A stretch of DNA of 30,786 nt, taken from IMG/VR virus record IMGVR_UViG_3300005611_000135, positions 1 through 30,786 of that record, one strand, 5' to 3'. The stretch is from a virus. Lineage: Duplodnaviria; Caudoviricetes. Below are positions 1-30,786 of this stretch, one piece after another (positions within the stretch are counted from its first letter, which is position 1; each line of letters starts with the position of its first letter). Under the pieces are notes generated by a model that did not search any database, was not told where the DNA came from, and worked only from the letters and a program-made list of their open reading frames with translations. The position numbers were made by a program, and so were the translations under genes.

Positions 1-77
1 CGGGCATACTCATTTTGAGTAGCGCTTTTGAAATCTAAAGAGGCACCGCTTCCGTTACTGTAGGATTGATAAATGCT
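1..77 (+). repeat. Left terminal inverted repeat (77 bp, perfect)
   Basis: Bases 1-77 are the exact reverse complement of 30710-30786; first mismatch at position 78. Contains palindrome TACTCA-TTT-TGAGTA (7-21). Confidence 0.97.
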
Positions 78-1647: not shown

Positions 1648-1972
1648 AACAGGGGTTCCATTGATAAAGGTTTATGAAATAGCCTGATGTTTCGGACACG
1701 GTTTTACCGCTAACCAAAAGAACAGGCGGGTTGCCATATTCATCTACATATCTTGATTCCTCAAGAACAAACTTAGATAAGAGGCTTCTTGCGTATGTAG
1801 GGCTACAATCGCATTTATTTACGACATCTTCTGCGCTGACCCATTTACTGTTTTTCACGATATTGAGCACCTTGGAAGTTGTGCTTTCGCCATTCATTCT
1901 ACGTATTCGCTTGTATTTGGCTTGCTCAAATTTCGACATAAGGTGTACTTCATTTTCCATTTTCTGCCTCAA
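1625..1972 (-). CDS. Putative wHTH DNA-binding protein
   Basis: KVLNIVKNSKWVSAEDVVNKCDCSPTYARSLLSKF fits HTH spacing. Confidence 0.6.
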   Translation of the reverse strand: MRQKMENEVHLMSKFEQAKYKRIRRMNGESTTSKVLNIVKNSKWVSAEDVVNKCDCSPTYARSLLSKFVLEESRYVDEYGNPPVLLVSGKTVSETSGYFINLYQWNPCYGKGKPK

Positions 1973-3081: not shown

Positions 3082-3112
3082 ATTCCGTATGTTTGTTTCG
3101 TTTACCGACGCT

Positions 3113-5641: not shown

Positions 5642-7220
5642 AACATTTACAGATTACCCCGAAAGTGCCTCTAACAACGCGAAGCGTGCTATACGTATTA
5701 AAGAAGAAAACGATATAGGGTGCGGGACTAAGGTTGGATGGACTCGGGCAAGACAACTTGCCAACAAAGAGGCTATCACGTTAGAAACTGTTCGAAGGAT
5801 GGCAAGTTTTAACAGGCACAGGCAAAATAGCAAAGGCGACCCAAAAGAAGATTGTGGGGCGCTTATGTGGTTGGCTTGGGGCGGGACATCAGGCATAAAT
5901 TGGGCAATCAAAAAATCCGAAAGTTACAAATCAATGAACTCTACTAAAGCCGAAGAACTCTTCAATCAAATTAAAGACTTTGCCGAAAAGCAAGGCGACG
6001 CAATGATGGACTACAACCTCAACGACACTGTAAGGTTGTCTGACGATGCAGGCAATCAAGTCGTTGGCATTGTTGAAAACGTCGATAAAGGCGTATATGA
6101 CGTGCGTGTTATGGCTCAAGCGGGCGATATGTTCGAGCCTACCGATACCGTCCTTTATCGCTTCTCTGATGAACTTGAACCCTACCGTGAACCCCAAGAA
6201 ACCGAAGAGAACGATGATACTGAAGAAACTGAAGAGATGGCAGAGTCATTTGATAATGAAGATGGAGATACTCCGAATCAATCTACAGATGAAGAAGCAG
6301 AGGATGGACAAGGAGTTGATGCAGGAGAAGAAGAGGCGGAGAATTCAGAGGAATCAGAAGATGATGAATCAGAAACTGAAGAAACTGAAGTAGAAGAGCC
6401 TGAAGAGGAATCTTCCGAGGAAATGGAAGAGGACGAAGAAGAGGACGAAGAAGAGGACGAAGAAGAGGACGAAGAAGATGACGAAGAAGAAGTGCCTCTA
6501 AAAAAAGGTATGACCGTTTCTTGGCGCAGTAGAGCGGGTGTAACGTATGGCAAACTAATTGACGACAAAGGAAACGTAGAGGTTTATGTCAAAAACGACA
6601 ACGTTTACACACCAACGACAATCGTTGTAAAACATAAACTTAGCAACCTCAAACCTGCGAGCATAGACATCAAAGACCGCGCTTTTCAAATCTTGTGCGA
6701 ACTAAAAGAAATGGACGTGGAAGTTGACGAGTCGAAAAACGTGGCTGTCATCACGGGAATAGCCTCTTCATACGGTCAGGTGGACTTGGGGGGTGATACA
6801 GTGGCTAAAGGCGCCTATAAACAGACTCTATACCACAAGGGGGGCAAGGTTAAGTTGTTTAATGACCACAAGTGGAAGATGTCTGACCTTGTTGGTCTTG
6901 CTTATCTTGAAGATGGCGAAGAAGGCTTGATGATGAAAGCAGAAATGCCACTTGAAGTACCTGAAGCAAGCAATACATATAAAATGATTAAATTTATGCT
7001 TGACCGTGAAGAAAAAGTAGGACTATCTATAGGCTACAACACGGTCAAAGCAGATTACAATGATGATGGCACAAGAGTATTGAAAGAGTTATCATTACAG
7101 GAAATTAGCGTGACTCCATTTCCAATGGACACACACGCCAACATTTTAGAAGCCCGAATCAAACGCATACAATACAAGTCGATGCAAGAAGATTGGGCGA
7201 CTATTACTGATGCGCCCTAA
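5634..7220 (+). CDS. Multidomain HK97-type prohead protease
   Basis: C-terminal domain with GIASSYGQVDLGGD, LFNDH, GLSIGY, EISVTPFPM; long N-terminal extension with an acidic tract. Confidence 0.9.
   Translation: MAETFTDYPESASNNAKRAIRIKEENDIGCGTKVGWTRARQLANKEAITLETVRRMASFNRHRQNSKGDPKEDCGALMWLAWGGTSGINWAIKKSESYKSMNSTKAEELFNQIKDFAEKQGDAMMDYNLNDTVRLSDDAGNQVVGIVENVDKGVYDVRVMAQAGDMFEPTDTVLYRFSDELEPYREPQETEENDDTEETEEMAESFDNEDGDTPNQSTDEEAEDGQGVDAGEEEAENSEESEDDESETEETEVEEPEEESSEEMEEDEEEDEEEDEEEDEEDDEEEVPLKKGMTVSWRSRAGVTYGKLIDDKGNVEVYVKNDNVYTPTTIVVKHKLSNLKPASIDIKDRAFQILCELKEMDVEVDESKNVAVITGIASSYGQVDLGGDTVAKGAYKQTLYHKGGKVKLFNDHKWKMSDLVGLAYLEDGEEGLMMKAEMPLEVPEASNTYKMIKFMLDREEKVGLSIGYNTVKADYNDDGTRVLKELSLQEISVTPFPMDTHANILEARIKRIQYKSMQEDWATITDAP
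6426..6485 (+). repeat. 12-bp coding tandem repeat GAAGAGGACGAA x5 (EEDE)
   Basis: Four perfect copies plus one with a single mismatch. Confidence 0.92.
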
Positions 7221-17559: not shown

Positions 17560-20500
17560 TTCGTTCATCTTTTAAGACCTCGGTCGGAGAGGTTATTGTC
17601 GAGATAACTACGGGCGGGAGCCAAATAGATGCGTTTATCAATAAAATTGGCGAGATAAAGTATCAGTTTGACCAAACGCCCGACTCAATAGACATCAACA
17701 AAACTATAGCACTTTATAGTCAAATGTCTGTTGACCTGAACAAGTACAGTCTTGAAAACATAGACGTTTACGATAGGTTAATGAATCCGCCTAACGGGGC
17801 AGAACCTTTGGATGTAGTCGTAGTTGTACGACCTTACGACGACACGGGAATATTTTACAACGAAAAAACTGCTCGATTTAATTTTCAGTTGGAGCAGAAG
17901 AATATAAACTATCGGGAAAAAGACGAACTAATCAACCTTCGTTTTACCCCGAGATTAAAAACAAATGTTACTGTATCGGACGTTGTAGATGGGGGCACAA
18001 ACTATAACTACGCTGTAAGACAGACGACAAGTAGCACGAATACTACGAACCTGAACTGCCTGCCTGTGAAAGATTACATAAGCAGGGCAATGGAAAAGAT
18101 TTTTGACAATGAGGGCGAGAGTAATTGGGAAACTATCATCGACTCAAGTCAAACGGGTCTTGACACAAATAGTTACACAAATAATGTTTTTGAGGACTAC
18201 TCTAATTGGTCGAGCGGTCAACAAGGGTTTGTGATTTGCGGATATAGCGAACTTGTTTTTGAATCACCCGACGCTGACACGGAAACAGTGTTTGGTAATG
18301 GTTTGGTTACGATTGACAGAACTATAACCAACACAAATCTCAACATACCTTTTGACCAAATCGTTAACTATAACGTACAAGCGACAGGTCTTTTGAGTCA
18401 GTTTAATAATGGCGACTCAATATCATTTAATTTACCCGACCAACAACCTTTAACGTTCTATGTGTTTTTTGCTAACTCTACCGCAAACAGCATACAAACA
18501 AGTTACTTTCCTCAATACACGGTTCGACCTACAAATGCCACATTCAGCAATGTGGCGTTCCAAATCACACGAAAAGTGCAACCCTCACTTGTACCCGCGG
18601 TACAAACATTAAAGCAGTTAGCGGGAACTGAGGGAGCCATATTTGGCACGGGGTTTAGCAAAAACTTTTATGTCTATAGGTTGTTTAACAATCTATCTAA
18701 CGTTGTTTCCATAGATTACAGCAACGTAATAGATTTAAGCGAAAAGAAGGATAGTTTTTTTCTTAACAACAGCCTTGTTGGTCAAATAGCAAGCCTCTAC
18801 TATGGCACGGGAAATGGATATAGTGGTTACGGTCAGTTGCTTAACAATAAAAATGCAATTCTACCGAACATACTTGATTACAACAGTATTATTAAAGGCA
18901 ATGCAAACGCAAATAAAAGCCTTAAAATACAGATTCCAACAGCATATCCGTTTCTGAATAAAACAAGGCGTGATGGCGTTGATTTTGAATTTCTTGAAAT
19001 TGTAGAGCCTGACGTTGACCCAACTGAATTTGACAGAAACTTAGAGAAGAGTCTTACCGAAAATGGCATAACAGCATATTTTAATGCCCTTAATCAAATT
19101 GGCGGTGGCACAAAAATAAAGGTAACTCTAATGGGTGCGTTTACTGTGAAACCGTATGAAGTCTTTGAGTTTGGCACAGACGCACCTGAAAAGTACCAAA
19201 ACAGGCAATTCCGCATTACTAACATATCATACAATTTAGTTGATGACATAGCGAAGATTGAAGGCTATCAAATTAACAACCTGCAAAGTGAAGTTGTAGA
19301 ATTACCTGAACCGCCAAACAGCGGTGGGGGTGGTGGCAATGGCGGGGGTGGTGGTAACACTGAACCACCAACAGATACAGGATATGCAATCACTTACAGA
19401 CTAAACGAATGGAACCTGATAGGCAATCCAACTCCAAACGACATTGTGCAGTCTGCAAATGGCTCTTTGGGTTATTTCAGTGATTATCTAAATGGCACGC
19501 TATACAAATTTACAGGTAGTTATGAGGAAACAGATGTTCTCGAGTCAAATACGGGTATTGGATATTGGGCGTTTTTAGGTATTTCAGGTGGCGAAGCAAC
19601 TGCTATTACATATAACGTGTCACCCCTTTCGGAACAAAGCCTTTTTTCAGTTTCTCTTAATGCGGGATGGAATTTAATTACGGGCTATGGTGGTGAAGGT
19701 ATGTCTGAGGTCAGCGGTGCATACCTTAATGGCAGTATATATGCGTTTAATGGCTCCTACGAAGAGATAGACAGGTTATTAGCAGGGCAGGGGTATTGGA
19801 TATATTCATCGAATGGCGGTACAATAAACATAACTCCAACAACCAATGTTAGCAACGTTACTAATTGGAACCTAACGCACAAAAAAATTGAAGTAACAAG
19901 TGGTAACAAATTGCAACAGGTTTATTTCGATAGAGATACGGGCAATACAACCACAAACTACCTTGCGCTTCAATTCCCGCCAATCATAAATGGCATTTTT
20001 GACGCACGTATAAACAATGATGAATTAAATACCGTACTACGCGACAGGCGCGTGATAGACAGCAACACTGTCAACATAGACGTGCAATTTGCAGAAGGTG
20101 GGCGAAGGTCTATTGCGCATTATCCTGTAACAAACACTATAAGTCTAACTACGCAGTATCAATACACGTTTTTTGAGGGTGATAAAATTATCACAGCCTT
20201 AAACGTAACTGAAGGCGACACTATTGATTTACCCGAGTTGACTACTCGTGTGCAAATTAAACCAATGGGCGCCTCATTGCGATTACCCGTTCGTGCAAGT
20301 GATATAGCAAACGATGACTATGTTTTGACCGCTGAATATGACAGAACGGGTACGTCTGTAACTAATGCGAACGTCGAAACACTTATACAAGATTCTTTAT
20401 TTGCTGTATATGACTTAGACGGTGATTACAAGATAGAGGTTGGATATAGAACTAACATCGCCATAACACCGCAGATTTTTCTTGATGACACTGCCCAAGG

Positions 20501-20927
20501 TACGTCGGGAGCAAATTCTGTAACTATTACATACGATGCAATCGGATTAACGACATTGAGTGGTGGTAATTGGTTAGTAAAAAACAGTCAGGTAACTCAC
20601 GATTACTCAACTATAGAAACCACTGTAGCCTTAGCATCTTTTTCTACCAATCAAAATAATTACAATATAGGCGATGGTACATTTTTTACAATCGCGACGT
20701 CCGCAACGCCTTCTGCAGACATAACAGGTATTACAGGTGGCGTTGATGGGCGCATTATTGAACTATTAAACAGGGGTTCTCGTGATATATATTTACGACA
20801 TCGCAACGGTGGCTCTTCAGGCGCTAATCAAATAACGGAGCCACGCGGGAACGATGTCTTATTAACACAGTATTCATCAGTACGATTACGGTATGTTACC
20901 GCAGTAGGTAATTGGGTGGTATGTTAA
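17556..20927 (+). CDS. Large tail tip/hub protein with adhesin-like C-terminal modules
   Basis: 1123 aa; hub-like end (FRITNISYNL), Gly/Pro linker, two WNLI...GYW repeats, fibre-type C-terminal domain (ITGITGGVDGRII). Confidence 0.75.
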   Translation: MIRSSFKTSVGEVIVEITTGGSQIDAFINKIGEIKYQFDQTPDSIDINKTIALYSQMSVDLNKYSLENIDVYDRLMNPPNGAEPLDVVVVVRPYDDTGIFYNEKTARFNFQLEQKNINYREKDELINLRFTPRLKTNVTVSDVVDGGTNYNYAVRQTTSSTNTTNLNCLPVKDYISRAMEKIFDNEGESNWETIIDSSQTGLDTNSYTNNVFEDYSNWSSGQQGFVICGYSELVFESPDADTETVFGNGLVTIDRTITNTNLNIPFDQIVNYNVQATGLLSQFNNGDSISFNLPDQQPLTFYVFFANSTANSIQTSYFPQYTVRPTNATFSNVAFQITRKVQPSLVPAVQTLKQLAGTEGAIFGTGFSKNFYVYRLFNNLSNVVSIDYSNVIDLSEKKDSFFLNNSLVGQIASLYYGTGNGYSGYGQLLNNKNAILPNILDYNSIIKGNANANKSLKIQIPTAYPFLNKTRRDGVDFEFLEIVEPDVDPTEFDRNLEKSLTENGITAYFNALNQIGGGTKIKVTLMGAFTVKPYEVFEFGTDAPEKYQNRQFRITNISYNLVDDIAKIEGYQINNLQSEVVELPEPPNSGGGGGNGGGGGNTEPPTDTGYAITYRLNEWNLIGNPTPNDIVQSANGSLGYFSDYLNGTLYKFTGSYEETDVLESNTGIGYWAFLGISGGEATAITYNVSPLSEQSLFSVSLNAGWNLITGYGGEGMSEVSGAYLNGSIYAFNGSYEEIDRLLAGQGYWIYSSNGGTINITPTTNVSNVTNWNLTHKKIEVTSGNKLQQVYFDRDTGNTTTNYLALQFPPIINGIFDARINNDELNTVLRDRRVIDSNTVNIDVQFAEGGRRSIAHYPVTNTISLTTQYQYTFFEGDKIITALNVTEGDTIDLPELTTRVQIKPMGASLRLPVRASDIANDDYVLTAEYDRTGTSVTNANVETLIQDSLFAVYDLDGDYKIEVGYRTNIAITPQIFLDDTAQGTSGANSVTITYDAIGLTTLSGGNWLVKNSQVTHDYSTIETTVALASFSTNQNNYNIGDGTFFTIATSATPSADITGITGGVDGRIIELLNRGSRDIYLRHRNGGSSGANQITEPRGNDVLLTQYSSVRLRYVTAVGNWVVC

Positions 20928-21361
20928 TGAAAAAGCAAAAACTAAAGGCAGAAAGGCTTTACGTGGACAAAAAAAGCACAAATTATGGATTTGAAAAAGT
21001 TTTTGCGCCCGAAAAACCTCGCTTTTCTATGCGAGTTAGGGCAAGGGCAAGATGGCTCAAGATTTGGTGGAAAGTAAAAAGACCCCTATTTTTAATTGTA
21101 TCAATGACTAAGTACAGGCACTTATTAACTTTATTAAACATAGATATGAAGATTAAATACAATCAAACAAGTACAAAGGCGGGTATTGTTCTATTGACTA
21201 CAATTCTTGCTTTATTAGGAGTCAACGCAGAGCAGGAATTTCTTACGGAAAACATTGAAAAACTTGTAGAGGGGGTTGTTCTTATGGTGGGGTCATTGAC
21301 AGCATTGTATTCCATTCTAAAAGACGACGAGAAAGGTAACGACTCAAACAATGATTCTTGA
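20927..21361 (+). CDS. Putative holin-like membrane protein (alternative start 21146)
   Basis: Two hydrophobic segments after QTSTKAG, charged C-terminus, basic N-terminal extension. Confidence 0.5.
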   Translation: MKKQKLKAERLYVDKKSTNYGFEKVFAPEKPRFSMRVRARARWLKIWWKVKRPLFLIVSMTKYRHLLTLLNIDMKIKYNQTSTKAGIVLLTTILALLGVNAEQEFLTENIEKLVEGVVLMVGSLTALYSILKDDEKGNDSNNDS

Positions 21362-21387
21362 CATTGATTGTCACAAACGCATATATT
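21358..21387 (+). promoter_or_regulatory. Sigma70-like promoter with no downstream ORF
   Basis: TTGACA-18 nt-TATATT. Confidence 0.65.
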
Positions 21388-21392
21388 GAAAC

Positions 21393-21490
21393 AGAATACT
21401 TGTACTTTGTAGGTATTGGTTTTCTATGTGATTGTTTGGTTTTTGTTAGTTGATAAAAAGGGCGGGCGTAAAACCCCGTCCTTTTTTTTT
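21393..21490 (+). ncRNA. Candidate small regulatory RNA (~95 nt)
   Basis: Promoter, 5' hairpin 21395-21417 with G-U pairs, U/G-rich unpaired segment, terminator; complementary to phage gene leaders. Confidence 0.6.
21455..21490 (+). terminator. Intrinsic terminator, probably bidirectional
   Basis: A5-GGGCGGG-loop-CCCGTCC-T9 between convergent operons. Confidence 0.88.
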
Positions 21491-21497
21491 ATGAATA

Positions 21498-21589
21498 TGC
21501 GGGTTCTAACCTAATCGGTGAGATAGTCAGCCCCGCAGAAAGACCCGAGGGGGCTTGAGTCTTTCGATTCGCTCCCTCGGGCATTTTTT
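21498..21589. other. Two GC-rich long hairpins in the convergent intergenic region
   Basis: TGCGGG...CCCGCA (21498-21537) and CCCGAGGGGGC...GCTCCCTCGGG (21544-21581). Confidence 0.6.
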
Positions 21590-21881
21590 ACTGCTCGACG
21601 CTATCTTCTCTCCTAAATTTTGCTTTAATCATCAATTCAGGTTTCCTGCAGTAACTCTGCGGTACTTCCATCTTGAAACTATCAACCCTGTGGTCAATAA
21701 TAACGTTTGGGTCGTCCTTAAACTGCCTATACCACCGACGGGCGGTATAGGGTTCGGTTGTTTCGAGATAGACCGTCTTTGACGAGTGTTCGTACAAAAT
21801 AGAGGTTTCTCGCTCTTCAGAACTGAACGCTCTACCTATGTTGTTCAGTATCTTCTCGATTTGTGCTTTCACCTTTTTCAT
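21588..21881 (-). CDS. Conserved phage hypothetical protein
   Basis: 97 aa, EERETSI.Y motif, ATGA overlap with erf. Confidence 0.7.
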   Translation of the reverse strand: MKKVKAQIEKILNNIGRAFSSEERETSILYEHSSKTVYLETTEPYTARRWYRQFKDDPNVIIDHRVDSFKMEVPQSYCRKPELMIKAKFRREDSVEQ

Positions 21882-22492
21882 TGGCTATCTTCTATGGATT
21901 CTCGGCTAAGGTCTGAAAAATACGCTTGCGCCTGTTTGCTGACTTTGTAGTGAGTGAACAAGTCTTTTACCGTCACTGCGCCTGCTCTTATTTTTTGCTC
22001 TGCATTTGACCAATCTTCGGTGCCCTCATTGAGCCACTTCCGATTGTCATTTTCAGGCTGTTTCTTGTCTCGTGGCTGTGAAGGTTTTGCAGAATCAGAA
22101 ATCATTCTTGCTTCATCAGTATCGGCATCTTTAGCGTCATCAATGAGCCACATTCCGTTGAGCGCATATTTTCTCGCGTAACTTGATGCGGTGCCCGAAA
22201 TCTGCGATTCGTCCATACCTTTCTTTTGGTCTGCCTCTCGTGCCAATGCACTTACCTGAATAGAGTCTGACTCAAAAGAAACAGTTACGGTTGCCTCAAT
22301 ATAATACCTGTTGCCAATTAAACGAACACTATCCGTAATGGTCTGCAACAACCCTTCTTTGTATAGCAAGGGTTTTAGCGCCTCAAGAACATCTTCTTGA
22401 CTACGGTAATTGTATCGACCAAACGAATTGTATTGGTTTTTCGGTGCACGCAATTCGTGCTGTATCTTAATGATTTTTTCTATTAGACTCAT
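21878..22492 (-). CDS. erf: ERF-family single-strand annealing protein
   Basis: APKNQYNSFGRYNYRS.ED and GTASSYARKYALNGMWLIDD.KDAD signature. Confidence 0.93.
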   Translation of the reverse strand: MSLIEKIIKIQHELRAPKNQYNSFGRYNYRSQEDVLEALKPLLYKEGLLQTITDSVRLIGNRYYIEATVTVSFESDSIQVSALAREADQKKGMDESQISGTASSYARKYALNGMWLIDDAKDADTDEARMISDSAKPSQPRDKKQPENDNRKWLNEGTEDWSNAEQKIRAGAVTVKDLFTHYKVSKQAQAYFSDLSRESIEDSQ

Positions 22493-22770
22493 TTTTCACC
22501 TCTCGTTTTGGTTTCGCGGTCTTTCATCATCAGTTTGATTTCGTTGAACTGACGCTCCTGCATACCACATACAGATTCATAAAAATGATAAACCTTTTTA
22601 TGCACCTGCTCTTCAGGTGGCGTTGCCAACATAAGCGATATTGCCGAAGGGCTATACCCCATTGCTATAGCAACTTGTCGTTGTGAAAAGTTTGACACTT
22701 CCATTATTCTTAATGATTGGTCAAACAGTTTTTTGTTGATTTTGGCTACTGTGTTTTTTGCAATCGTCAT
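22489..22770 (-). CDS. XRE/Cro-like HTH protein
   Basis: FSQRQVAIAMGYSPSAISLML; ATG 22770 follows the upstream stop and an A/C-rich leader. Confidence 0.7.
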   Translation of the reverse strand: MTIAKNTVAKINKKLFDQSLRIMEVSNFSQRQVAIAMGYSPSAISLMLATPPEEQVHKKVYHFYESVCGMQERQFNEIKLMMKDRETKTRGEK

Positions 22771-22792
22771 AGGTTTTGTTGTTAGTTTTGGT

Positions 22793-23167
22793 TTATGCTT
22801 TGTATTTGTTTTTGGTGCTAACGCTTTGCATCGCGTACATTTCATACACGTCATCGTAAAAACTCTTCGATTTTGGCACAGCGGTAAAAATATCTACCAT
22901 TGTGGATGGCGCCATCTTGGTTGATGCACTTACTTCGCCATTGCCATTGTTTTTGACAATAAAGATGTACTCAACCATTTCATTAAGAGCCTTCAGTTTC
23001 ATCGCGGTTTCTTTGAACAGTTTGTCAACTATTTCGTTGAAGTCGTTCGCCATAAACTCTACGACGCCATTTGCTTCATCTAAGGGAAGGCTCTTTAGGT
23101 ACTCAATGGCACCTTTTTTATCGTCTGCTTCTGCGTATGCGAGTAACTTTTCTAAGTGCGTTTTCAT
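22793..23167 (-). CDS. Hypothetical protein
   Basis: 124 aa ATG ORF coupled to the upstream gene. Confidence 0.7.
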   Translation of the reverse strand: MKTHLEKLLAYAEADDKKGAIEYLKSLPLDEANGVVEFMANDFNEIVDKLFKETAMKLKALNEMVEYIFIVKNNGNGEVSASTKMAPSTMVDIFTAVPKSKSFYDDVYEMYAMQSVSTKNKYKA

Positions 23168-23592
23168 TTTGTGTTCCTCTCCAATTTAACATAGGATGTG
23201 TATTTTTTTTCCGCCATAGGGATTTCTTCTCCGTATTGGTCGGTTAGTCCGCCTATTTCTGCTGACCGTTTCATCATATCTTGCCTGCCCTTAATAAGAG
23301 CCTTCAATCTATCCACCTCTTCGTCTTTATATGAATACGCCACTTTTGACACGTTCTTCAAAGTATATCCATTGTAAACGAGAGCGTCCTTGCCTGCGTG
23401 TTGAATTTCGTCAAGTACATACTTAGAAATTTGGTCACGCAATTCTTTTGCTAATTTTTCGATTTCGTACAATTCCACGTATGTTGGGAATGCTTCAATA
23501 TCGCCTTGCTCTATGTGGTAAACGGTATTTGCATATTCTTCGCAAACCTCGTCAACCAACATTCCATTTTCAGGGTAAACTTTATCTCTCAT
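23164..23592 (-). CDS. Conserved phage hypothetical protein
   Basis: Helical then beta pattern (YNGYTL...YSYKD...TDQYGEEIP) like Bacteroidota phage early proteins; ATG 23592 chosen. Confidence 0.7.
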   Translation of the reverse strand: MRDKVYPENGMLVDEVCEEYANTVYHIEQGDIEAFPTYVELYEIEKLAKELRDQISKYVLDEIQHAGKDALVYNGYTLKNVSKVAYSYKDEEVDRLKALIKGRQDMMKRSAEIGGLTDQYGEEIPMAEKKYTSYVKLERNTK

Positions 23593-23788
23593 ATCTATCT
23601 CCGTACATATCGTTTTGTCGTTCAGCAAGACGTTCTTGCTCTTCGGTTCTGTATCTGTATTGTACTCTTGGCTCTGATTCCATTCTTAACTCTGCCTCAA
23701 GTTTATCTCTGTATCGCTCTTGCTGACGCTGTAACTCGAAGATTTCTTCTTCTTCTCTTTGTCTGTCTGCGTATTCTTGACTTGTCAT
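23582..23788 (-). CDS. Hypothetical highly charged protein
   Basis: 68 aa E/R-rich, ATGA overlap. Confidence 0.65.
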   Translation of the reverse strand: MTSQEYADRQREEEEIFELQRQQERYRDKLEAELRMESEPRVQYRYRTEEQERLAERQNDMYGDRYER

Positions 23789-24006
23789 AACTTTCTGTTT
23801 TTTGAGATTTCAAATTTTAATTCTGCCAATTCCCTTAACATATTGTCGATTGTTTCTTCGTCCCTGAAGAATATATGCGTTCGACCGTATGATGCCTTGT
23901 CTTTGGCAAACATTAAACCGTGCGTTGTATTGATTGTGCCTTTATCAAGCGAGAAGCGCTCAATAATAGACTCTTTGCCTAAGTGTATATTTAGTGATGT
24001 TTGCAT
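23785..24006 (-). CDS. Hypothetical protein, first gene of the leftward early operon
   Basis: 73 aa, about 45 nt downstream of a strong promoter match. Confidence 0.65.
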   Translation of the reverse strand: MQTSLNIHLGKESIIERFSLDKGTINTTHGLMFAKDKASYGRTHIFFRDEETIDNMLRELAELKFEISKNRKL

Positions 24007-24049
24007 ACTTTGCGATTGTTTTGGTTAATGTTTATCATCATTGTTGATG

Positions 24050-24080
24050 CAAAGATACACACTAATTTTCAAGTTGTCAA
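24050..24080 (-). promoter_or_regulatory. Early leftward promoter
   Basis: Minus strand TTGACA-17 nt-TATCTTTG (also fits the Bacteroidota TAnnTTTG box). Confidence 0.75.
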
Positions 24081-24097
24081 GATAAATTTACACAAAA

Positions 24098-24484
24098 ATG
24101 GAAATATCATTACTAATAGACGGTAAGCCTTGCCACCAAAAACGCCACAGACACGGAAGGGGGCGCACTTATGACCCAAGTAAGCCTGAAAAAAATAATG
24201 TGATAAAAAAAATAAAGAGCCAATACAGGGGCGCCCTGATTGACGTTCCTATAACTTTAATTATTACTGCTTATTATGTCCCACCCAAATCGTACAAGAT
24301 AGACGTCAAGTCGGGTTTGCATTACAAGCAGACTACGCCTGACTGTGACAACATTGCAAAATTTTATATGGACGCGATGAACAAGGTGGTGTATGCCGAT
24401 GATAAACTTGTCGCATCTTTAAGCGTTACAAAAATGTACCACGAGCGCGACCACGTAATTATTTACATATCAACATTAGAGTAG
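24098..24484 (+). CDS. rusA: RusA-family Holliday junction resolvase
   Basis: PDCDNIAKFYMDAMNKVVYADDKLV catalytic motif. Confidence 0.92.
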   Translation: MEISLLIDGKPCHQKRHRHGRGRTYDPSKPEKNNVIKKIKSQYRGALIDVPITLIITAYYVPPKSYKIDVKSGLHYKQTTPDCDNIAKFYMDAMNKVVYADDKLVASLSVTKMYHERDHVIIYISTLE

Positions 24485-24491
24485 ATTTTAC

Positions 24492-24522
24492 TTGCTTTCA
24501 AAAGTAATTGTTCATATCTTTG
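24492..24522 (+). promoter_or_regulatory. Promoter for replication genes
   Basis: TTGCTT-17 nt-TATCTTTG, same -10 box as at 24050. Confidence 0.65.
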
Positions 24523-24548
24523 CAAACCAACCTTATTCCCAACTTGCT

Positions 24549-24580
24549 ATGGCAGGTGTCTTTGATTAGGCGCCTGCCAT
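24549..24580 (+). promoter_or_regulatory. 13-bp leader hairpin upstream of the initiator gene
   Basis: ATGGCAGGTGTCT-TTGATT-AGGCGCCTGCCAT. Confidence 0.6.
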
Positions 24581-24656
24581 TTACCTCATTAAGTAGCGTT
24601 GACTCTTGACCGAGCCTTCGCTCCCTTCATTCAACAGTAACCAAAAAAGCAAAGTG

Positions 24657-25406
24657 ATGAATAAGGACGCATACTATTTCCCGCATTTCTGCAATGCGAG
24701 GTCGGACAGAAAAATTAGGCGAGTAAGAAAAGAGTTGGGCATCGAAGGGTATGCCATATATTTTATGCTGTTAGAGGTTCTTCGGGAGCAAGAAGATTTC
24801 TCATATCCCCTATCTGACATCGACCTTCTTGCAGATGAATTTCAGACTTCAGAACAGAAGATTGATGTGGTTATTAAGAACTACGAACTGTTCGAAATTG
24901 ATGAACATCAAAACTTCTTTTCATATAAGCAAATTGAGTACCTAAAACCGTATTTAGAGCGCTCTAAAAGAGCAAGGACTGCTTCACTAAAGCGTTGGGG
25001 CACAAGCAAAAAACAAAGTAATAATGCAAATGCAATGCAAATGCTAAGCGCAAGCAATGCAAGTAAAGTAAAAGAAAGTAAAGTAAATGATAGTATATAC
25101 AGCGATTCTTTCTTGGAGTTTTGGGAGTCTTACGGAAAGAAAAAGGAAAAGCGTAAATGTGCAATCAAATGGAACAGGCTTAAAGAGTCAGATAAAAATT
25201 TGATATTAGAATTTATCCCGATTTACAAAAACAGCGTTTCGAGCGTACAATATCAAAAAAACCCATATACATTTTTGAATAGCGGTATATGGGAAGATGA
25301 TTGGTCGTCTTATACGCCAAACCAACAATCAGTAAAATCAAAAGGCAATGGACAAACACAACGCTTTATCGAAGTTGGTCAAAGACTCGTTGACAGCGAT
25401 TGGTGA
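24657..25406 (+). CDS. Putative replication initiator (DUF4373/Lin1244-like N-terminal domain)
   Basis: YYFPHFCNARSDRKI...GIEGYAIYFMLLE.L; low-complexity linker; FLEFWESYGKK...KNPYTFLN..WEDD C-terminal domain. Confidence 0.8.
   Translation: MNKDAYYFPHFCNARSDRKIRRVRKELGIEGYAIYFMLLEVLREQEDFSYPLSDIDLLADEFQTSEQKIDVVIKNYELFEIDEHQNFFSYKQIEYLKPYLERSKRARTASLKRWGTSKKQSNNANAMQMLSASNASKVKESKVNDSIYSDSFLEFWESYGKKKEKRKCAIKWNRLKESDKNLILEFIPIYKNSVSSVQYQKNPYTFLNSGIWEDDWSSYTPNQQSVKSKGNGQTQRFIEVGQRLVDSDW
25023..25087 (+). repeat. Iteron-like short repeats, candidate origin
   Basis: AATGC x5 followed by AAGTA repeats within the initiator linker. Confidence 0.55.
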
Positions 25407-25917
25407 GAAGGCATCAGTATCACAGAAAAGCGAGTTAATTAAGCATAAAAATAATTACATTGTTCCTACAAGGGGGCAGGTAAAAATCATATTATCGTAC
25501 CTATACAGCATTGGTGCAACAGACTATCACCTGACTGAAAACGATGAAGCAAACAAGCAAGTGCTGATTCAATGGTACAATGAAATGGTTGTAAAAAACA
25601 CAAGTTTTCCATCTGACATAAACATTGGCTTTGTGTTAGAAGAATTCAAAAGCGCTGTCATACAGGGCTATGCGGATATGAAAGGTTTTAATTTGCGCAG
25701 TCAAGTGCAGGCTTTTAAGCAATGGATTCGTGAGTACAATAACGAACTGTACTCAAAATGGTATTCGCTAAATGCGGATAAAAAACCCAAAGAACTACCA
25801 AGGTTCGCGGGTGCGGAAAAGACCGTCGATAACGTAGATAACCAATTACATACGATATTTGGCGACTCAATTCCTCAAACATTCACTAAATACACAACAA
25901 AAACCAAACAACTATGA
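25348..25917 (+). CDS. Hypothetical protein (helicase-loader position)
   Basis: 189 aa directly after the initiator; no motif recognised. Confidence 0.65.
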   Translation: MDKHNALSKLVKDSLTAIGEKASVSQKSELIKHKNNYIVPTRGQVKIILSYLYSIGATDYHLTENDEANKQVLIQWYNEMVVKNTSFPSDINIGFVLEEFKSAVIQGYADMKGFNLRSQVQAFKQWIREYNNELYSKWYSLNADKKPKELPRFAGAEKTVDNVDNQLHTIFGDSIPQTFTKYTTKTKQL

Positions 25918-26201
25918 GTTACGAAAACAAAGGAATCATCTTTGAAAACAAGTACAAAACTACAGATAGGCACCCTGACTACAAAGGGCGCATCAACTTT
26001 AACGGTGTTGAGTATGATTTAGGCGCTTGGTACGGAACGACCCGTAACGGTGACAAGATGCTGTCACTAAAGGTCGGTGAGGTATATGACCCAAATCGTA
26101 ATGCTCAACCACAAACTACAGTGGTAAGTAGTCAACCCGCGAACAACGGGACAGACTTCATTGAAAAAGCGATGGAAGAAGATGACCAACTGCCATTCTA
26201 A
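25914..26201 (+). CDS. Putative ssDNA-binding protein (DUF736-like)
   Basis: HPDYKGRI...GAW...LSL core, flexible linker and acidic DDQLPF tip. Confidence 0.7.
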   Translation: MSYENKGIIFENKYKTTDRHPDYKGRINFNGVEYDLGAWYGTTRNGDKMLSLKVGEVYDPNRNAQPQTTVVSSQPANNGTDFIEKAMEEDDQLPF

Positions 26202-26206
26202 GTATT

Positions 26207-26716
26207 ATGGGAAAATTTCAGATTGAAGATTTAATATACCCCGTTACTACGCCATTTCTGATTTCACACAATCAGTTACAAGCCATACGGGAGCATCATC
26301 TGAAGCCTATCAATGAGATAGCATCAAGCGTAAGCATTTACTACGCTTGGTGTTATCGTGATAGGTTGCACGAATGTAAAAATGGAAGGCGACCTGAAAC
26401 AGACACAGAGTTTGAGCATTTTCCACACGTGGTTGGTAAAATGTATTGGTCAGAACATTGCTTTTTACCGAGCCTAAGACAACTTGATGGGAAAGGTGCT
26501 TGTGATATTTCAGGAAAAGATTTACTATCTTTGGCAGAGTTACTCCTTAAACACACCAAGTATTGCAGATACGCGATATACGAAGAAAGCAGGTTTATAC
26601 ACTGCGATTATGCTTGGGGGTACAAAGAGCCAAGGTTTTATTTGGGCGATAAATCTTGGTTGCAGGTTGGCGAGGATAAGTATTTTGAAACAATAAAAAA
26701 TTTATCCAATGGATGA
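26207..26716 (+). CDS. Putative endolysin, peptidase M15 family
   Basis: CYR...SEH...GACDI...FIHCD zinc-ligand pattern. Confidence 0.72.
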   Translation: MGKFQIEDLIYPVTTPFLISHNQLQAIREHHLKPINEIASSVSIYYAWCYRDRLHECKNGRRPETDTEFEHFPHVVGKMYWSEHCFLPSLRQLDGKGACDISGKDLLSLAELLLKHTKYCRYAIYEESRFIHCDYAWGYKEPRFYLGDKSWLQVGEDKYFETIKNLSNG

Positions 26717-26996
26717 TAGGTTAGGTCAACGCCTTGATAAACTTGAAGAGCATCTTGTGCAGGTGTCGGAAACCCTCGCAGGTATTGTAAAAAGCGTTAC
26801 AGCAATAAACATAGGCATACAGGGAAATAATGACCACGACCAACTTGGTTACAGGCATAGGATAAAAAGACTTGAAGATGAAGTTGAAGAGATACAAGAC
26901 TTCAAAAAAAAAATTCAATACACTGCGTCCGCAATAGCGTTTATAGGTTCCTTCGTGGCAAACGCAATATGGATTATTTTTCAAAAACTAAACTAA
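26709..26996 (+). CDS. Coiled-coil membrane protein (holin/XhlA-like)
   Basis: Coiled coil plus one C-terminal TM helix, adjacent to the endolysin. Confidence 0.55.
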   Translation: MDDRLGQRLDKLEEHLVQVSETLAGIVKSVTAINIGIQGNNDHDQLGYRHRIKRLEDEVEEIQDFKKKIQYTASAIAFIGSFVANAIWIIFQKLN

Positions 26997-27002
26997 AAAC
27001 AG

Positions 27003-27269
27003 ATGGCATACGATAAATTTTCAGGTGAACACAAATACGCTAACCAATCATACACTTTTGCAGAAACCGCTGATTACTCTACAAGTGATTATGTTTTCAA
27101 TAGGGTTCCAACAGCACTCAACTGTGATTCTCTTGGCAAACTTCGCGTTGATATGCTTGAAGGCGGTACAAATGTGTTAATACAAGTTGTTTTTGGTGAA
27201 AACAAACTTCGAGTAACGAAGATTTATGCCTCTTCACCAACTACAATGAATGTAGTAGGATTATCCTAA
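27003..27269 (+). CDS. Head spike base protein (RcGTA Rcc01079-like)
   Basis: AL....G.LRV.M..G......LRVTKIYA...T..VVGL matches the recalled family pattern and size. Confidence 0.72.
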   Translation: MAYDKFSGEHKYANQSYTFAETADYSTSDYVFNRVPTALNCDSLGKLRVDMLEGGTNVLIQVVFGENKLRVTKIYASSPTTMNVVGLS

Positions 27270-28216
27270 TGATACAGTTTATTGGAAGTGCGCCAAACGG
27301 TTTCCTGCAATGGTTATCTCAATACTTTTCTAAAAACCTAAACGTGTTTCTGCTTGACAGATACCCTGCGAACTTGCACTATGCGTTTGCGTTAAGAGCG
27401 TTGTCTGAAGAATATGCAGTACGACAGTTTGCGCGTGTGCGAAGAGATGTAGATGGCGCCACTTTTGATGTCACGCAGTCATCATTTGACGATGGCACAC
27501 TTGAGTCGTTTATGACACTAAATGGCACAAATACGTCGATTACAGGAACTGTTGTTCAGTTAAATGACCAATCTAATAATTTAAGAACTGCTACACAGGC
27601 AGACCCCGCAAAACAGCCTACAATATGGAAACCAATATCAGGGTTGGTTACAAATTTTGGAGAACCTGCAATCGAATTCGATGGAATTGACGATGAATTA
27701 ACCGTTACAAATAGCGGTGTTTTATCTGATTTCACCTTATTCTCAATGATAAAATTTAACAACTTGGCGACAGGCATTGGCGCATTAGTTGGTGTTGACC
27801 AAGCAGGCGTCGTATATGATGGCGCTCAAAACGGTATAGGCTATAGTGATGCAGTAACAGCCTTTCAGTTATTGTTAGATAAAGCCAACATAGATGAAAA
27901 TACTGCGTTGTACTCTGTGATGACCGACAAATTAGGTCTTAGACTTTCACCGACTTTAGACGGTATAACCTATGGCAGTCTATCGCCCGCGGGTGGTGAT
28001 TTAGAGGTTGACTTTTCTTCGATAAATGGTCGATTTACAAGCAATATAACAAGCGTAGTTATGCAAGATTTGATTGTTTATAGTGCTGAAAAAACAGCAG
28101 AGCGGGCTGACATTTTAGACTACATAAACTATTATTACCAAAAATATCTTGTTCCAAATGTAGCGGTAGGAACAGGTACGGACTATAACGAACTTATTTG
28201 GAACGCAACAACCTAA
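27269..28216 (+). CDS. Head fibre/spike with ConA/LamG-like lectin domain
   Basis: AFALRAL...RVRR, DQSNN...ATQ....QP, PAIEFDGIDDEL motifs; coupled to the spike base gene. Confidence 0.7.
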   Translation: MIQFIGSAPNGFLQWLSQYFSKNLNVFLLDRYPANLHYAFALRALSEEYAVRQFARVRRDVDGATFDVTQSSFDDGTLESFMTLNGTNTSITGTVVQLNDQSNNLRTATQADPAKQPTIWKPISGLVTNFGEPAIEFDGIDDELTVTNSGVLSDFTLFSMIKFNNLATGIGALVGVDQAGVVYDGAQNGIGYSDAVTAFQLLLDKANIDENTALYSVMTDKLGLRLSPTLDGITYGSLSPAGGDLEVDFSSINGRFTSNITSVVMQDLIVYSAEKTAERADILDYINYYYQKYLVPNVAVGTGTDYNELIWNATT

Positions 28217-28220
28217 AATT

Positions 28221-29018
28221 ATGGACTTAAAAAACAAAAAGTTTAGTGCAACCTACGGGAACCTTCTGACTATAAATACCGTAGCAGGTTCGCCAACTTC
28301 AGGTGATGTCCAAAATGGGGACGGAACAAATATTGCCTCAATGAACATAAATGGGGATTTGTCTGCAACTAATGTTAATGCAAATTTGGCTTCTGCCACG
28401 ACTGTAAACGCTCAAAACACTAATACGACAAATATAACAGCCACGGACGTAAATGCGACAAATATAAACGCCACTACATTTGTTGCTACAGTAGCGACAG
28501 GTGATGCGGGCGGACTGACAAACATAAACGCTCAAAACATAACAGGCGTATATACGGGAAACATTGCTTTGCCTTGGGCTAAACTTGAGTGGACAACAAA
28601 TTATTTTAATCTGCCGAATAATGCCCTGTCAAGACCAAGATGGGATGTTTACGATGATAACACAACTCTATTTGAGGTCTTTGACTTAGGTGGTTTTAAC
28701 CCTCGGTTAAAAGTAAACCAAAATGGATTATACTTGTTTCTCAGTACAGTGCATCTTTATGATATGTATGCAGATATGGATTTGCAGGTTCATCTTATCG
28801 GTGGCAGTAGCAATACTGCGTCAAATGCTATCGTAACTTGTCTTAACGATGAAAAATTTGCTGAGTCACAAGAGGACAGAACGATACAAGGGCAAGCATC
28901 TGTCGAGGCAGTTTCAGGTCAGTATTACACTATAGGAATAGAGCCTTCTGCAAATAGCCCATTTCCGAGTAGTGCAAATAATTGCCCGACATCACTGACC
29001 GTCATAAAAGTCGCTTAA
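28221..29018 (+). CDS. Fibre protein, paralogue A
   Basis: N-terminal anchor, Asn/Thr 5-residue repeats, C1q/TNF-like C-terminal domain. Confidence 0.65.
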   Translation: MDLKNKKFSATYGNLLTINTVAGSPTSGDVQNGDGTNIASMNINGDLSATNVNANLASATTVNAQNTNTTNITATDVNATNINATTFVATVATGDAGGLTNINAQNITGVYTGNIALPWAKLEWTTNYFNLPNNALSRPRWDVYDDNTTLFEVFDLGGFNPRLKVNQNGLYLFLSTVHLYDMYADMDLQVHLIGGSSNTASNAIVTCLNDEKFAESQEDRTIQGQASVEAVSGQYYTIGIEPSANSPFPSSANNCPTSLTVIKVA

Positions 29019-29042
29019 ACAAAAACAAGTAATCGTTGTTTT

Positions 29043-29846
29043 ATGGACTTAAAAAACAAAACAATATCCTCAACGCTTGGGAACCTTCTAACTATCAACA
29101 CTGTGGCAGGTTCGCCAACAGAGGGGGTTGTTCAAAATGGCGATGGTGTAGATGTGAAAAGCATCAACATAGGTGGTGATGTTGTATTAACAAATGTAAA
29201 CGCAACCACAATAAATGCTAACACGGTAGATACTACTACGTTAAATTCAAACATAAACGCCACAAACCTAAACACAACAAACATTGAGGGGGTAAATTTA
29301 GGCTCAACAGTGATAAATTCTAATGGGTTTACATTGTCAAATGTAAGGGGCGAAGAAATTGTAGGTGACAGATTAAGTGCAGGTTCTGTTTATGGTAGAT
29401 ATATTAAAACAACGTGGAACACAAACTATTTCAACTTAACCAATAACCAAAACAACTATATACCTTGGGACTCTTCGATTGATAACGACCCTCAAAATAG
29501 AGTCTTTGAGTTTGTAGTAAGTGGCATCTATCGCAAAGTACAAGTTAAAAGAAGTGGTTGGTATTTATGTTTTGCAACAATTCACTTGTACGATATGTAT
29601 GCAGATATGGACTTACGCGCTTCTATTCAAGTTGACGAATTTATTACATCACCCGCAACCGAGTTTGGTATTATAGATGAAAAATTCATCGAAGGGCAAG
29701 AGGATAGGACAATGCACGCAAAAAGACTTATATACGTGCCTGAAAATTGGTACATAACATATTGGGTCAACCCGTCTGCAAACGCCCCATATCCAAGCAA
29801 CGCAAATAATTGCCCTACTTCTTTATTGATTCTTCAAATATCGTAG
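29043..29846 (+). CDS. Fibre protein, paralogue B
   Basis: Shares GNLLTINTVAGSPT, HLYDMYADMDL, QEDRT and ANNCPTSL with the previous gene. Confidence 0.65.
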   Translation: MDLKNKTISSTLGNLLTINTVAGSPTEGVVQNGDGVDVKSINIGGDVVLTNVNATTINANTVDTTTLNSNINATNLNTTNIEGVNLGSTVINSNGFTLSNVRGEEIVGDRLSAGSVYGRYIKTTWNTNYFNLTNNQNNYIPWDSSIDNDPQNRVFEFVVSGIYRKVQVKRSGWYLCFATIHLYDMYADMDLRASIQVDEFITSPATEFGIIDEKFIEGQEDRTMHAKRLIYVPENWYITYWVNPSANAPYPSNANNCPTSLLILQIS

Positions 29847-29852
29847 GTAAAA

Positions 29853-30752
29853 TTGAAAGCAAGAAAGGTTGGTAATGATGTCATTGTTGTAACTGACATC
29901 TATAAAGGTATTGATTTATTTATATGCTCTGATGTTCACTATGATTCGCTAAAATGCGATAGAAAGTCTTTCAAGGCACACCTTGAGCACATCAAAAGCA
30001 TAGATGGCAAAGTAATAATCGTTGGCGATTTATTTGACGTTATGGGTTGCTATAAAGACCCAAGGTCAAAGAGTGCTGATATTGACCCTAAATACATCGT
30101 CAGAGGACGCTCGTATTTAGACTTGGTTGTAGATGACGCATACGAGTTTCTAAAGCCATACAGGGAAAATATACTAATGATTTCGTATGGCAATCACGAA
30201 ACAGCCATACTAAGGCATAGGGACACCGATATTATTGACAGGCTCGTGTACCTTCTCAACCAAGACAGCGAATTTCAAACGCAGAAGGGAGTATATCAAG
30301 GTTGGATTCAAATGATGTTTCGAATGAGCGAAAAATCAGCGAGAATGAAATCATATCGAATAGCATACCACCACGGTAAGGGTGGTAACGCAAGACGCTC
30401 TAAAGGTATATTGTATTCGCAGTTAGACGCTATGGAGTACCCCGACGCAAACATAATCGTATCAGGGCACGACCACAATAAGTTGTACGACCCAAGCAAC
30501 GTAAGAAGGCGACTGCATTGGAATAAAAGGATATACACATACAAAGATACCGTGCATTGGCTCAAGACGGGTTCTTACAAAAAAAGCGCAGACGACTTCG
30601 GTTGGGAAGTAGAAAAAGGCTTCGCACCAAAACGACTTGGTGGGTGGTTCGTGAATCTCAAAATGAAAGTTAGTGTGGTGACGGATTTCGAGGGCAAGCG
30701 TAAGGAGCAAGCATTTATCAATCCTACAGTAACGGAAGCGGTGCCTCTTTAG
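29853..30752 (+). CDS. Calcineurin-like metallophosphoesterase; ends inside the inverted repeat
   Basis: SDVH, GDLFD, GNHE, HHG and SGHDH motifs; TTG start. Confidence 0.9.
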   Translation: MKARKVGNDVIVVTDIYKGIDLFICSDVHYDSLKCDRKSFKAHLEHIKSIDGKVIIVGDLFDVMGCYKDPRSKSADIDPKYIVRGRSYLDLVVDDAYEFLKPYRENILMISYGNHETAILRHRDTDIIDRLVYLLNQDSEFQTQKGVYQGWIQMMFRMSEKSARMKSYRIAYHHGKGGNARRSKGILYSQLDAMEYPDANIIVSGHDHNKLYDPSNVRRRLHWNKRIYTYKDTVHWLKTGSYKKSADDFGWEVEKGFAPKRLGGWFVNLKMKVSVVTDFEGKRKEQAFINPTVTEAVPL

Positions 30753-30786
30753 ATTTCAAAAGCGCTACTCAAAATGAGTATGCCCG
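30710..30786 (-). repeat. Right terminal inverted repeat (77 bp)
   Basis: Exact reverse complement of 1-77. Confidence 0.97.

What the first reader, a model, noticed from the sequence alone, without database searches (positions are those of the whole stretch)
21358..21490. Candidate phage sRNA antisense to several of the phage's own translation-initiation regions
Seen: TTGACA-18-TATATT promoter with no ORF, a 10-bp 5' hairpin (21395-21417) whose G-U pairs favour the + strand, an unpaired U/G-rich segment and a terminator. Bases 21432-21447 (TTGTTTGGTTTTTGTT) are a perfect 16-nt complement of 25896-25911, which ends 2 nt before the ATG of the SSB-like gene. The same segment pairs imperfectly with leaders of the first early gene (24011-24026), the post-initiator gene (25319-25331), the HTH gene (22772-22794) and more weakly the TerS-like gene (3088-3103). 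Inference: one trans-acting RNA represses early/replication genes, and possibly host mRNAs with A/C-rich SD-less leaders; it might act as a regulatory switch in a genome with no clear CI/integrase module. Caveat: the seed is low complexity.
Basis: partly seen in the sequence, partly recalled or inferred. Interest (0 to 1): 0.85.

Follow-up and report, generated by a model that had tools for sequence, protein, structure and literature searches.

The report
Phage anti-leader RNA targeting early genes
A bacterial virus carries a short unit with promoter-like and terminator-like ends whose middle is complementary to the ribosome-loading sites of four of its own early genes, so it likely makes a small RNA that would switch those genes off, but neither the RNA nor any repression has been shown.

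Summary
The unit is there: an 11/12 sigma-70-type promoter (21358-21387), a predicted ~97-nt RNA with an unpaired U/G-rich middle, and a terminator. Bases 21432-21447 are a perfect 16-nt complement of the SSB-gene leader (0 of 300 shuffles, 0 of 872 real-leader decoys reach 16). With accessibility counted, four of 43 start regions stand apart (first early gene, SSB, HTH gene, last early gene; -20 to -16 kcal/mol, next -12). Corrections: the 5' hairpin alone is no more stable than shuffles; a 31-codon TTG frame fills the unit, so 'no ORF' is wrong; the contig ends in a 77-nt inverted repeat, so the missing CI/integrase is unproven. The seed is the complement of the ordinary A/C-rich, SD-less leader style of the likely host (Balneolales), which feeds the main rival: a stranded leader copy in the late operon's 3' UTR. 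No homologue, covariation or expression data were found; host targeting was at chance level. Verdict: probably a trans-acting antisense sRNA (about 0.55), working like GcvB-R1 or GibS; a new variant of a known kind, from one genome.

The parts
21358..21387 (+). Promoter-like site TTGACA-18-TATATT; the -35 box overlaps the stop codon of the holin-like gene
   Evidence: 11/12 match; such a site arises in 89 of 20000 shuffles of 21330-21455; same class heads the operons at 24080 (-) and 3141 (-), both with 17-nt spacers
21393..21490 (+). Predicted ~97-nt RNA (start inferred 6-7 nt after the -10 box, end in the T run)
   Evidence: Fold -26 kcal/mol, z -3.4, most of it from the terminator; no Rfam family reaches its gathering score; not shown to be transcribed
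21393..21425 (+).
   Evidence: Paired in the whole-RNA ensemble; 21393-21420 alone z -1.06
21426..21454 (+). Single-stranded U/G-rich pairing region; 16-nt core 21432-21447
   Evidence: Unpaired probability mostly 0.5-1.0; carries the complement of AACTAA, the first or second most enriched hexamer in host-lineage leaders
21455..21490 (+). Intrinsic terminator, bidirectional in form, also the expected end of the late operon
   Evidence: z -3.6 on +, -2.9 on -
25896..25911 (+). Predicted target: leader of the SSB-like gene (25914-26201), perfect 16-nt match at -18..-3
   Evidence: -19.3 kcal/mol with accessibility; SSB by PHROGs E 1e-10
24011..24036 (-). Predicted target: leader of the first gene of the leftward early operon (24006-23785, unknown function)
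   Evidence: -20.3 kcal/mol, best of 43
22759..22787 (-). Predicted target: leader and start codon of the HTH-like gene (22770-22489), the only internal non-overlapping start in that operon
   Evidence: -17.9 kcal/mol; HTH only weakly supported (PHROGs E 0.0015; Atlas lead)
21887..21913 (-). Predicted weaker target: leader of the 97-aa last early gene (21881-21588), using the 5' part of the pairing region
   Evidence: -15.8 kcal/mol, needs opening of the hairpin base
21358..21453 (+). Rival feature: 31-codon TTG frame overlapping the holin-like stop by 4 nt, hydrophobic C-terminal half
   Evidence: best PHROGs E 0.062
21146..21361 (+). Holin-like last gene of the late operon (start uncertain; longer frame from 20927)
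   Evidence: PHROGs holin E 0.056, weak
24050..24080 (-). Promoter-like site of the leftward early operon, TTGACA-17-TATCTT

Best explanation
The unit likely makes a ~97-nt trans-acting antisense RNA whose single-stranded middle, which is complementary to four of the phage's own start regions, is predicted to pair with them and would block ribosome loading on the SSB gene and on the leftward early (recombination) operon. Shown in sequence: promoter-like site, terminator, complementarity, and that the two best leftward sites are the only two starts in that seven-gene operon that do not overlap an upstream gene. Inferred: transcription by host RNA polymerase from infection onward (and possibly also as the 3' end of the late mRNA), Hfq-independent pairing through a long seed, occlusion of the A-rich -3 to -20 determinants used in SD-less initiation, and spread of the block to downstream genes by translational coupling. 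The most likely role is a delayed negative feedback that turns early and replication functions down as the RNA accumulates.
For: Exact 16-nt match to a start region: 0 of 300 dinucleotide and 0 of 300 mononucleotide shuffles of 21426-21454 (shuffle mean 9.4), 1 of 300 and 0 of 300 for 21418-21454; 0 of 872 real leaders from host-lineage genomes and related phages used as decoy seeds exceed 13, and the window's own leaders share at most 11 nt with each other. Mean of the four best duplexes -21.1 vs -16.7 +/- 1.1, 0 of 300 dinucleotide shuffles; 4 of 872 decoys as good. With accessibility, four of 43 start regions score -20.3 to -15.8, the next -12.0, and all four lie in the 11-gene early/replication block. 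Promoter chance 89 of 20000; the same class heads operons in the window and precedes an ATG in 7 of 8 intergenic cases in relatives. In 800 kb of host-lineage DNA, 5 non-coding leader matches of 16 nt or more were found and none had a terminator behind it. Host-lineage leaders are mostly SD-less (SD-like in 9 of 99 and 6 of 117); Hfq 0 of 61 genomes, in line with long seeds as for GibS (PMC7366714, passages).
Against: No expression data. No homologue, so no covariation; the one close relative is identical over the unit and nearly invariant around it. The seed is low-complexity and leader-like: among A/C-rich decoys 3 of 56 equal the four-site score, and two related phages each have two real leaders sharing 16 and 22 nt. 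Without accessibility the three main start regions rank only 6th, 7th and 10th among non-self sites genome-wide. The single best duplex for the longer segment is not exceptional (25 of 300) and '3 of top 4 early' for the shorter one is not either (52 of 300). The terminator is needed by the late operon anyway; the spacer is 18 where the operon-head sites have 17; the promoter pattern was defined after seeing these sites; a 31-codon frame fills the unit. The region was picked because of the match, out of a very large scan.
Confidence: 0.55

Rival explanations
1. No functional RNA: the stretch is the 3' UTR of the late operon, and the U/G segment is a stranded or duplicated leader read from the minus strand (its gene lost), matching other leaders because all strong leaders in this lineage look alike.
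For: The minus strand reads like a typical leader; related phage leaders are near-identical in style; leaders sharing 16 and 22 nt occur in two related phage contigs; terminator-then-leader-then-ATG layouts occur among the 25 pattern hits (e.g. L118, L120, L127); the terminator is required regardless; hairpin not significant.
Against: No ATG or ORF of 20 codons or more follows the segment on the minus strand; it leaves the 11/12 plus-strand promoter unexplained; real leaders as decoys never exceeded 13 nt against this phage's starts (0 of 872); likeness to the SSB leader stops at the 16-nt core.
Confidence: 0.18
2. The RNA is real but aimed mainly at host mRNAs, as a general anti-leader or against a surface-protein/TonB-dependent-receptor operon, with the phage matches as a by-product.
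For: It carries the complement of the top host-leader hexamer. One Balneolales genome has a 21-nt perfect complement ending in the start codon of a 566-aa secreted protein that follows a TonB-dependent receptor gene (-36 kcal/mol). Host start regions at -18 or better: 14 of 597 vs 7.9 +/- 3.4 in shuffles.
Against: That enrichment is borderline (6 of 78 shuffles). The strong match is not kept in the 27 other homologous genes whose starts could be read (best -27). Exact 15-mer hits in 283 genomes: 9 vs 9 for the reversed control, 1 of 9 at the start of a long ORF; 19-mer hits 3 vs 4. The true host genome is unknown.
Confidence: 0.12
3. The unit is a small gene: a 31-aa hydrophobic peptide translationally coupled to the holin-like gene, perhaps a lysis accessory.
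For: TTG start overlaps the holin stop by 4 nt, the commonest overlap here (10 of 39 same-strand neighbours); the stop lies 1 nt before the terminator; codon score is above 90% of open wrong-frame windows.
Against: Codon score is at the 5th percentile of 593 true coding windows; the frame stays open 30 codons in 10% of shuffles; only 1 of 43 annotated starts is TTG; U/G-rich DNA encodes hydrophobic residues by itself; best PHROGs E 0.062; it explains neither the promoter nor the 16-nt match.
Confidence: 0.08

Closest known systems
GcvB sRNA, region R1 (enterobacteria)
   Same: Unstructured G/U-rich seed pairing with C/A-rich elements in or next to ribosome-binding sites of several mRNAs, silencing ACA translation enhancers (PMC3879156, passages).
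   Different: Chromosomal, Hfq-linked, targets amino-acid transport genes with SD sequences; no sequence match here. This unit is phage-borne and aimed at the phage's own genes.
GibS sRNA (Bacteroides thetaiotaomicron)
   Same: Long single-stranded seed repressing SD-less mRNAs at the start region in a lineage without Hfq (PMC7366714, passages).
   Different: Chromosomal, metabolic targets, seed in the 5' part; no Rfam or sequence match.
Phage antisense RNAs controlling own development: P22 sar, lambda OOP and aQ, Phi24B 24B_1, P1 C4
   Same: Phage RNAs that repress a phage regulatory gene by pairing (PMC12197685 parts 1-2 of 6; PMC8198154 passages for C4).
   Different: As described there each acts on one antirepressor, cII or Q mRNA, mostly from the opposite strand or the same operon, in phages with a protein repressor. 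Here one distant RNA is predicted to hit several start regions in two operons.
Trans-acting phage sRNAs VpdS (VP882) and PreS (lambda)
   Same: Phage-encoded, trans-acting, affect phage replication (PMC12197685 part 1).
   Different: Hfq-dependent and largely host-directed; proteobacterial hosts.

Membership tests
Trans-encoded base-pairing sRNA | Own promoter and intrinsic terminator around a short unit | tested here: met
   Consensus matches only
Trans-encoded base-pairing sRNA | Discrete transcript detected | not tested
   No read data were examined; expression remains open
Trans-encoded base-pairing sRNA | Accessible seed complementary to start regions of distant mRNAs beyond chance | tested here: met
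   weaker against A/C-rich decoys (3 of 56)
Trans-encoded base-pairing sRNA | Non-coding | tested here: inconclusive
   No ATG-started frame of 20 codons; two TTG frames with intermediate codon score
Trans-encoded base-pairing sRNA | Seed conserved or covarying with targets in relatives | tested here: inconclusive
   Only an identical copy; none in 151 genomes or viral pattern scans
Trans-encoded base-pairing sRNA | Repression dependent on pairing | not testable with these tools
   Needs reporters with compensatory changes
GcvB (Rfam family) | Match to the covariance model | tested here: not met
   No hit
GcvB (Rfam family) | Host has Hfq | tested here: not met
   0 of 61 genomes of the likely host order
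GibS and other Rfam sRNA families | Match at gathering score | tested here: not met
   Best 24.9 bits vs gathering 99 (icd-II) and 21 vs 50 (STnc390)
Cis-antisense phage RNAs (sar, OOP, aQ) | Encoded opposite the target gene with full complementarity | tested here: not met
   Targets lie 0.4-4.5 kb away; no gene on the opposite strand of the unit
P1 C4 / P4 CI immunity RNAs | Family match and a downstream icd/antirepressor operon | tested here: not met
   No Rfam hit at threshold; no antirepressor among 43 ORFs; operon layout of P4 recalled, not from a call

The most novel reading that the evidence does not exclude
An RNA-only developmental switch: one phage sRNA shuts both free entry points of the early operon and the SSB gene, while leftward early transcription reading through the weaker minus-strand side of the terminator makes its exact complement and sponges it, giving a mutual-repression toggle (and immunity to superinfecting kin) in a phage with no protein repressor or integrase, in an Hfq-less, SD-less host.
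Probability: 0.1. Interest if true: 0.82.

Novelty: new variant of a known kind. Interest (0 to 1): 0.5.

Why it matters
If real, it is a phage sRNA that controls several of its own early genes in trans by masking the A/C-rich leader that replaces the Shine-Dalgarno signal in Bacteroidota-type hosts. Six literature searches (listings only) surfaced no phage sRNA from a Bacteroidota or Balneolales host and none aimed at several own start regions, though the library lacks most subscription papers. It gives a simple search rule (promoter, reverse-complement leader, terminator) for other phages of these hosts and a compact test case for Hfq-independent repression. It rests on one genome with no expression or conservation support.

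Tried and rejected
Rfam: nothing at gathering score. Relatives through neighbouring proteins: ERF, 97-aa and SSB scans of viral contigs gave 1 distant locus each, the 97-aa alignment none; metagenome and genome scans gave one near-identical copy (L003) and two non-syntenic loci; capsid relatives (10 loci; one contig in 283 genomes) did not reach the equivalent junction; a phage-like contig with ERF and initiator homologues (G076) has an ordinary gene at that junction and no such match. GenBank phages matched only through ERF. Pattern scans: 0 hits for the 20-mer; 7 loci, 4 distinct contexts, for the 18-mer, none with this layout; 25 loci for seed-plus-terminator, none with an ORF-free promoter unit by my script. 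A model from the single sequence gave 1 of 151 genomes, a plain terminator behind a short ORF, and only terminator-driven hits in 39 held sources. The striking host match (G135) was set aside as the best of a motif-rich background. A host promoter consensus could not be derived from 800 kb. The TGACA-N5-TGTCA palindrome over the -35 box has no second exact copy and is not taken as an operator. Exact protein look-up of the 31-codon frame was negative but also missed both holin frames, so it is uninformative. Earlier-findings look-ups returned nothing. Two start positions were mis-set and one; searches use corrected ones.

Full report
Setting. The window is a 30.8-kb tailed-phage contig: terminase, portal, protease, HK97-type capsid and tape measure on the plus strand, then a leftward block with ERF and a weak HTH gene, then RusA, a Lin1244-type initiator and an SSB-like gene. 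No integrase, repressor with peptidase domain or antirepressor was found among the 43 ORFs scanned. The host is likely Balneolales (Bacteroidota-type): the 97-aa protein has a 61% homologue in a record titled Balneolaceae, and capsid, SSB, ERF and initiator homologues each turn up in one of 283 genomes of that order. This is inference, not an assignment. The two ends of the window are an exact 77-nt inverted repeat that begins inside coding sequence at both ends; this looks like an assembly break at a repeat, so completeness, and with it the absence of a CI/integrase module, is not shown.

The unit. It sits between the convergent ends of the late operon (holin-like stop at 21361) and the leftward early operon (stop at 21588). 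TTGACA-18-TATATT at 21358-21387 is one of two 11/12 sites among 28 promoter-like hits in 19000-30786; the total count is not above shuffles (32.5 +/- 7), but a site this good arises in 89 of 20000 shuffles of the 126 nt before the terminator. A pattern drawn from these sites hits 11 times in 28 kb of intergenic and 10 times in 298 kb of coding sequence across 11 phage sequences; in the window its intergenic hits are this site and the heads of both leftward operons, and 7 of 8 intergenic hits in relatives precede an ATG by 18-226 nt (the pattern was defined after the fact). The predicted RNA 21393-21490 folds at -26 kcal/mol (z -3.4; minus strand -15.9), but the terminator carries this: the 5' hairpin alone has z -1.06. 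Bases 21426-21454 are mostly unpaired. The terminator is expected for the late operon in any case. 'No ORF' is wrong: a 31-codon TTG frame (21358-21453) overlaps the holin stop and ends 1 nt before the terminator, and a 32-codon TTG frame runs through the terminator. The first has an intermediate codon score (5th percentile of 593 true windows, 90th of 560 open wrong-frame windows) and is open by chance in 10% of shuffles.

The pairing. 21432-21447 is the exact complement of 25896-25911; the next-best sites in the window have 3 mismatches and the next-longest exact match of the whole unit is 12 nt. Against the 43 start regions, a 16-nt match was reached by 0 of 300 dinucleotide and 0 of 300 mononucleotide shuffles of the 29-nt segment (1 and 0 of 300 for the 37-nt segment); the mean of the four best duplexes by 0 and 1 of 300 (0 and 6 of 300). 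Some measures were not significant: best single duplex for the long segment 25 of 300; three of the top four being early genes for the short segment 52 of 300. In the seven-gene leftward operon, 24006 and 22770 are the only starts that do not overlap an upstream gene (coordinates); free-standing late-gene leaders score -12.0 or weaker. Against this, a plain genome-wide duplex scan puts these start regions only 6th, 7th and 10th among non-self sites.

What the seed is. In 800 kb from two Balneolales genomes, leaders are A-rich, G-poor and mostly SD-less (SD-like in 9 of 99 and 6 of 117 unambiguous starts), and AACTAA is the first or second most enriched hexamer; the RNA carries its complement (starts were refined with a matrix from the same data). 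So the seed is an anti-leader in general, and a better control is real leaders as decoy seeds. Of 872, none exceeded 13 nt of exact match and 4 matched the four-site score; among the 56 that are at least 75% A/C, 3 did. The window's own leaders share at most 11 nt. However, two related phage contigs each contain two genuine leaders sharing 16 and 22 nt, so copies of leaders do occur in this group, which keeps the stranded-leader reading alive. In those cases both copies precede an ATG; here none follows, and the other strand has promoter and terminator. In the host DNA, 5 of 154 non-coding leader matches reached 16 nt and none of these had a terminator behind it.

Host targets. One genome (G135) has a 21-nt perfect complement ending at the start codon of a secreted 566-aa protein downstream of a TonB-dependent receptor gene. 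It is not kept in 27 readable homologous leaders of 29 loci, pattern hits equal reversed controls (3 vs 4; 9 vs 9), and 1 of 9 lies at a long ORF's start. Over 597 host start regions enrichment is borderline (6 of 78 shuffles). Host targeting is possible but unsupported.

Conservation. The only copy found is identical over 260 nt in a 98.9%-identical contig whose differences lie almost all elsewhere. Viral pattern scans, a single-sequence covariance model over 151 genomes and 39 held sources, and related phage fragments gave no homologue; most related contigs are short and do not reach this junction, so this is absence of data more than evidence of absence. Rfam has no family for it. Expression was not examined.

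Mechanism. Most likely (0.55) host polymerase transcribes a ~97-nt RNA whose open middle pairs with the four start regions. Adenines at -3, -6 and -12/-13 promote initiation in Flavobacterium (PMC6847099, passages); the SSB and HTH duplexes cover all of these and the 24006 duplex covers -5 to -30. GibS shows that SD-less mRNAs can be repressed at the start region without Hfq, with an extended seed (PMC7366714, passages), and Hfq was found in 0 of 61 genomes of the order. Blocking the two free entry points would, if the overlapped genes are coupled, damp the whole ERF operon, and SSB with it: a delayed shut-off of early functions. Rivals: inert 3' UTR with a stranded leader (0.18), host-directed RNA (0.12), 31-aa peptide gene (0.08).

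Comparison. It works like GcvB R1, a G/U-rich unstructured seed against C/A-rich enhancer elements (PMC3879156, passages), but is not a member of that or any Rfam family. Known phage RNAs that govern their own genes (sar, OOP, aQ, 24B_1; PMC12197685 parts 1-2 of 6; C4, PMC8198154 passages) act on one regulator mRNA; VpdS and PreS act in trans through Hfq. No supplements were read. Six searches (listings and abstract starts) showed no phage sRNA from this host group or with this target set.

Verdict. Observation partly confirmed, interpretation partly supported; new variant of a known kind; interest 0.5, limited by one genome, a low-complexity seed and no expression data.

Noticed in passing
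window 1-77 and 30710-30786: Exact 77-nt inverted repeat at the two ends, starting inside the last gene on each side; probably an assembly break at a longer inverted repeat or palindrome, so the genome may continue. No protelomerase was found.
   Followed up: partly
window 21497-21590: Two further GC-rich hairpins in the 3' end of the leftward early operon (z -3.4 on minus, -4.0 on plus); one ends in a T run on the plus strand, the other has G-U pairs that favour the minus strand.
   Followed up: partly
window 21359-21373: Perfect TGACA-N5-TGTCA palindrome over the -35 box of the unit; no other exact copy in the window.
   Followed up: partly
window 24485-24656: Second rightward promoter-like site (TTGCTT-17-TATCTT at 24492) and a 130-nt leader with hairpins in front of the replication initiator gene.
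   Followed up: no
window 25020-25090: Short AATGCA and AAAGTA repeats inside the initiator gene, shared with related phage contigs; may be the origin.
   Followed up: no
window 26207-26996: A 169-aa ORF that by eye resembles a zinc peptidase endolysin and a 95-aa coiled-coil/TM ORF lie in the replication operon, far from the holin-like gene; no library match at E 0.001 for the first (resemblance recalled).
   Followed up: no
window 1950-2768: Glycosyltransferase-like gene divergent from the terminase gene, kept in that position in 6 related contigs (L006-L009, L013, L017).
   Followed up: partly
window 5634-7220: Prohead protease fused to an extra N-terminal domain and a long acidic (E/D) linker.
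   Followed up: no
L017 18651-19200 and L018 980-1324: Related phage contig in G204 has a duplicated early-gene block and repeats the leader AACTAACAC..AACCAAAACA before several genes, 16 nt of it shared with the tail-tube leader.
   Followed up: partly
L134 3890-4150: Two early genes of the G076 phage-like contig share a 22-nt leader.
   Followed up: partly
L034 8668-13279: Conserved Balneolales pair of a TonB-dependent receptor and a secreted protein with one to four repeats of a ~450-aa domain (69 of 283 genomes), no NCBIfam name for the repeat.
   Followed up: partly
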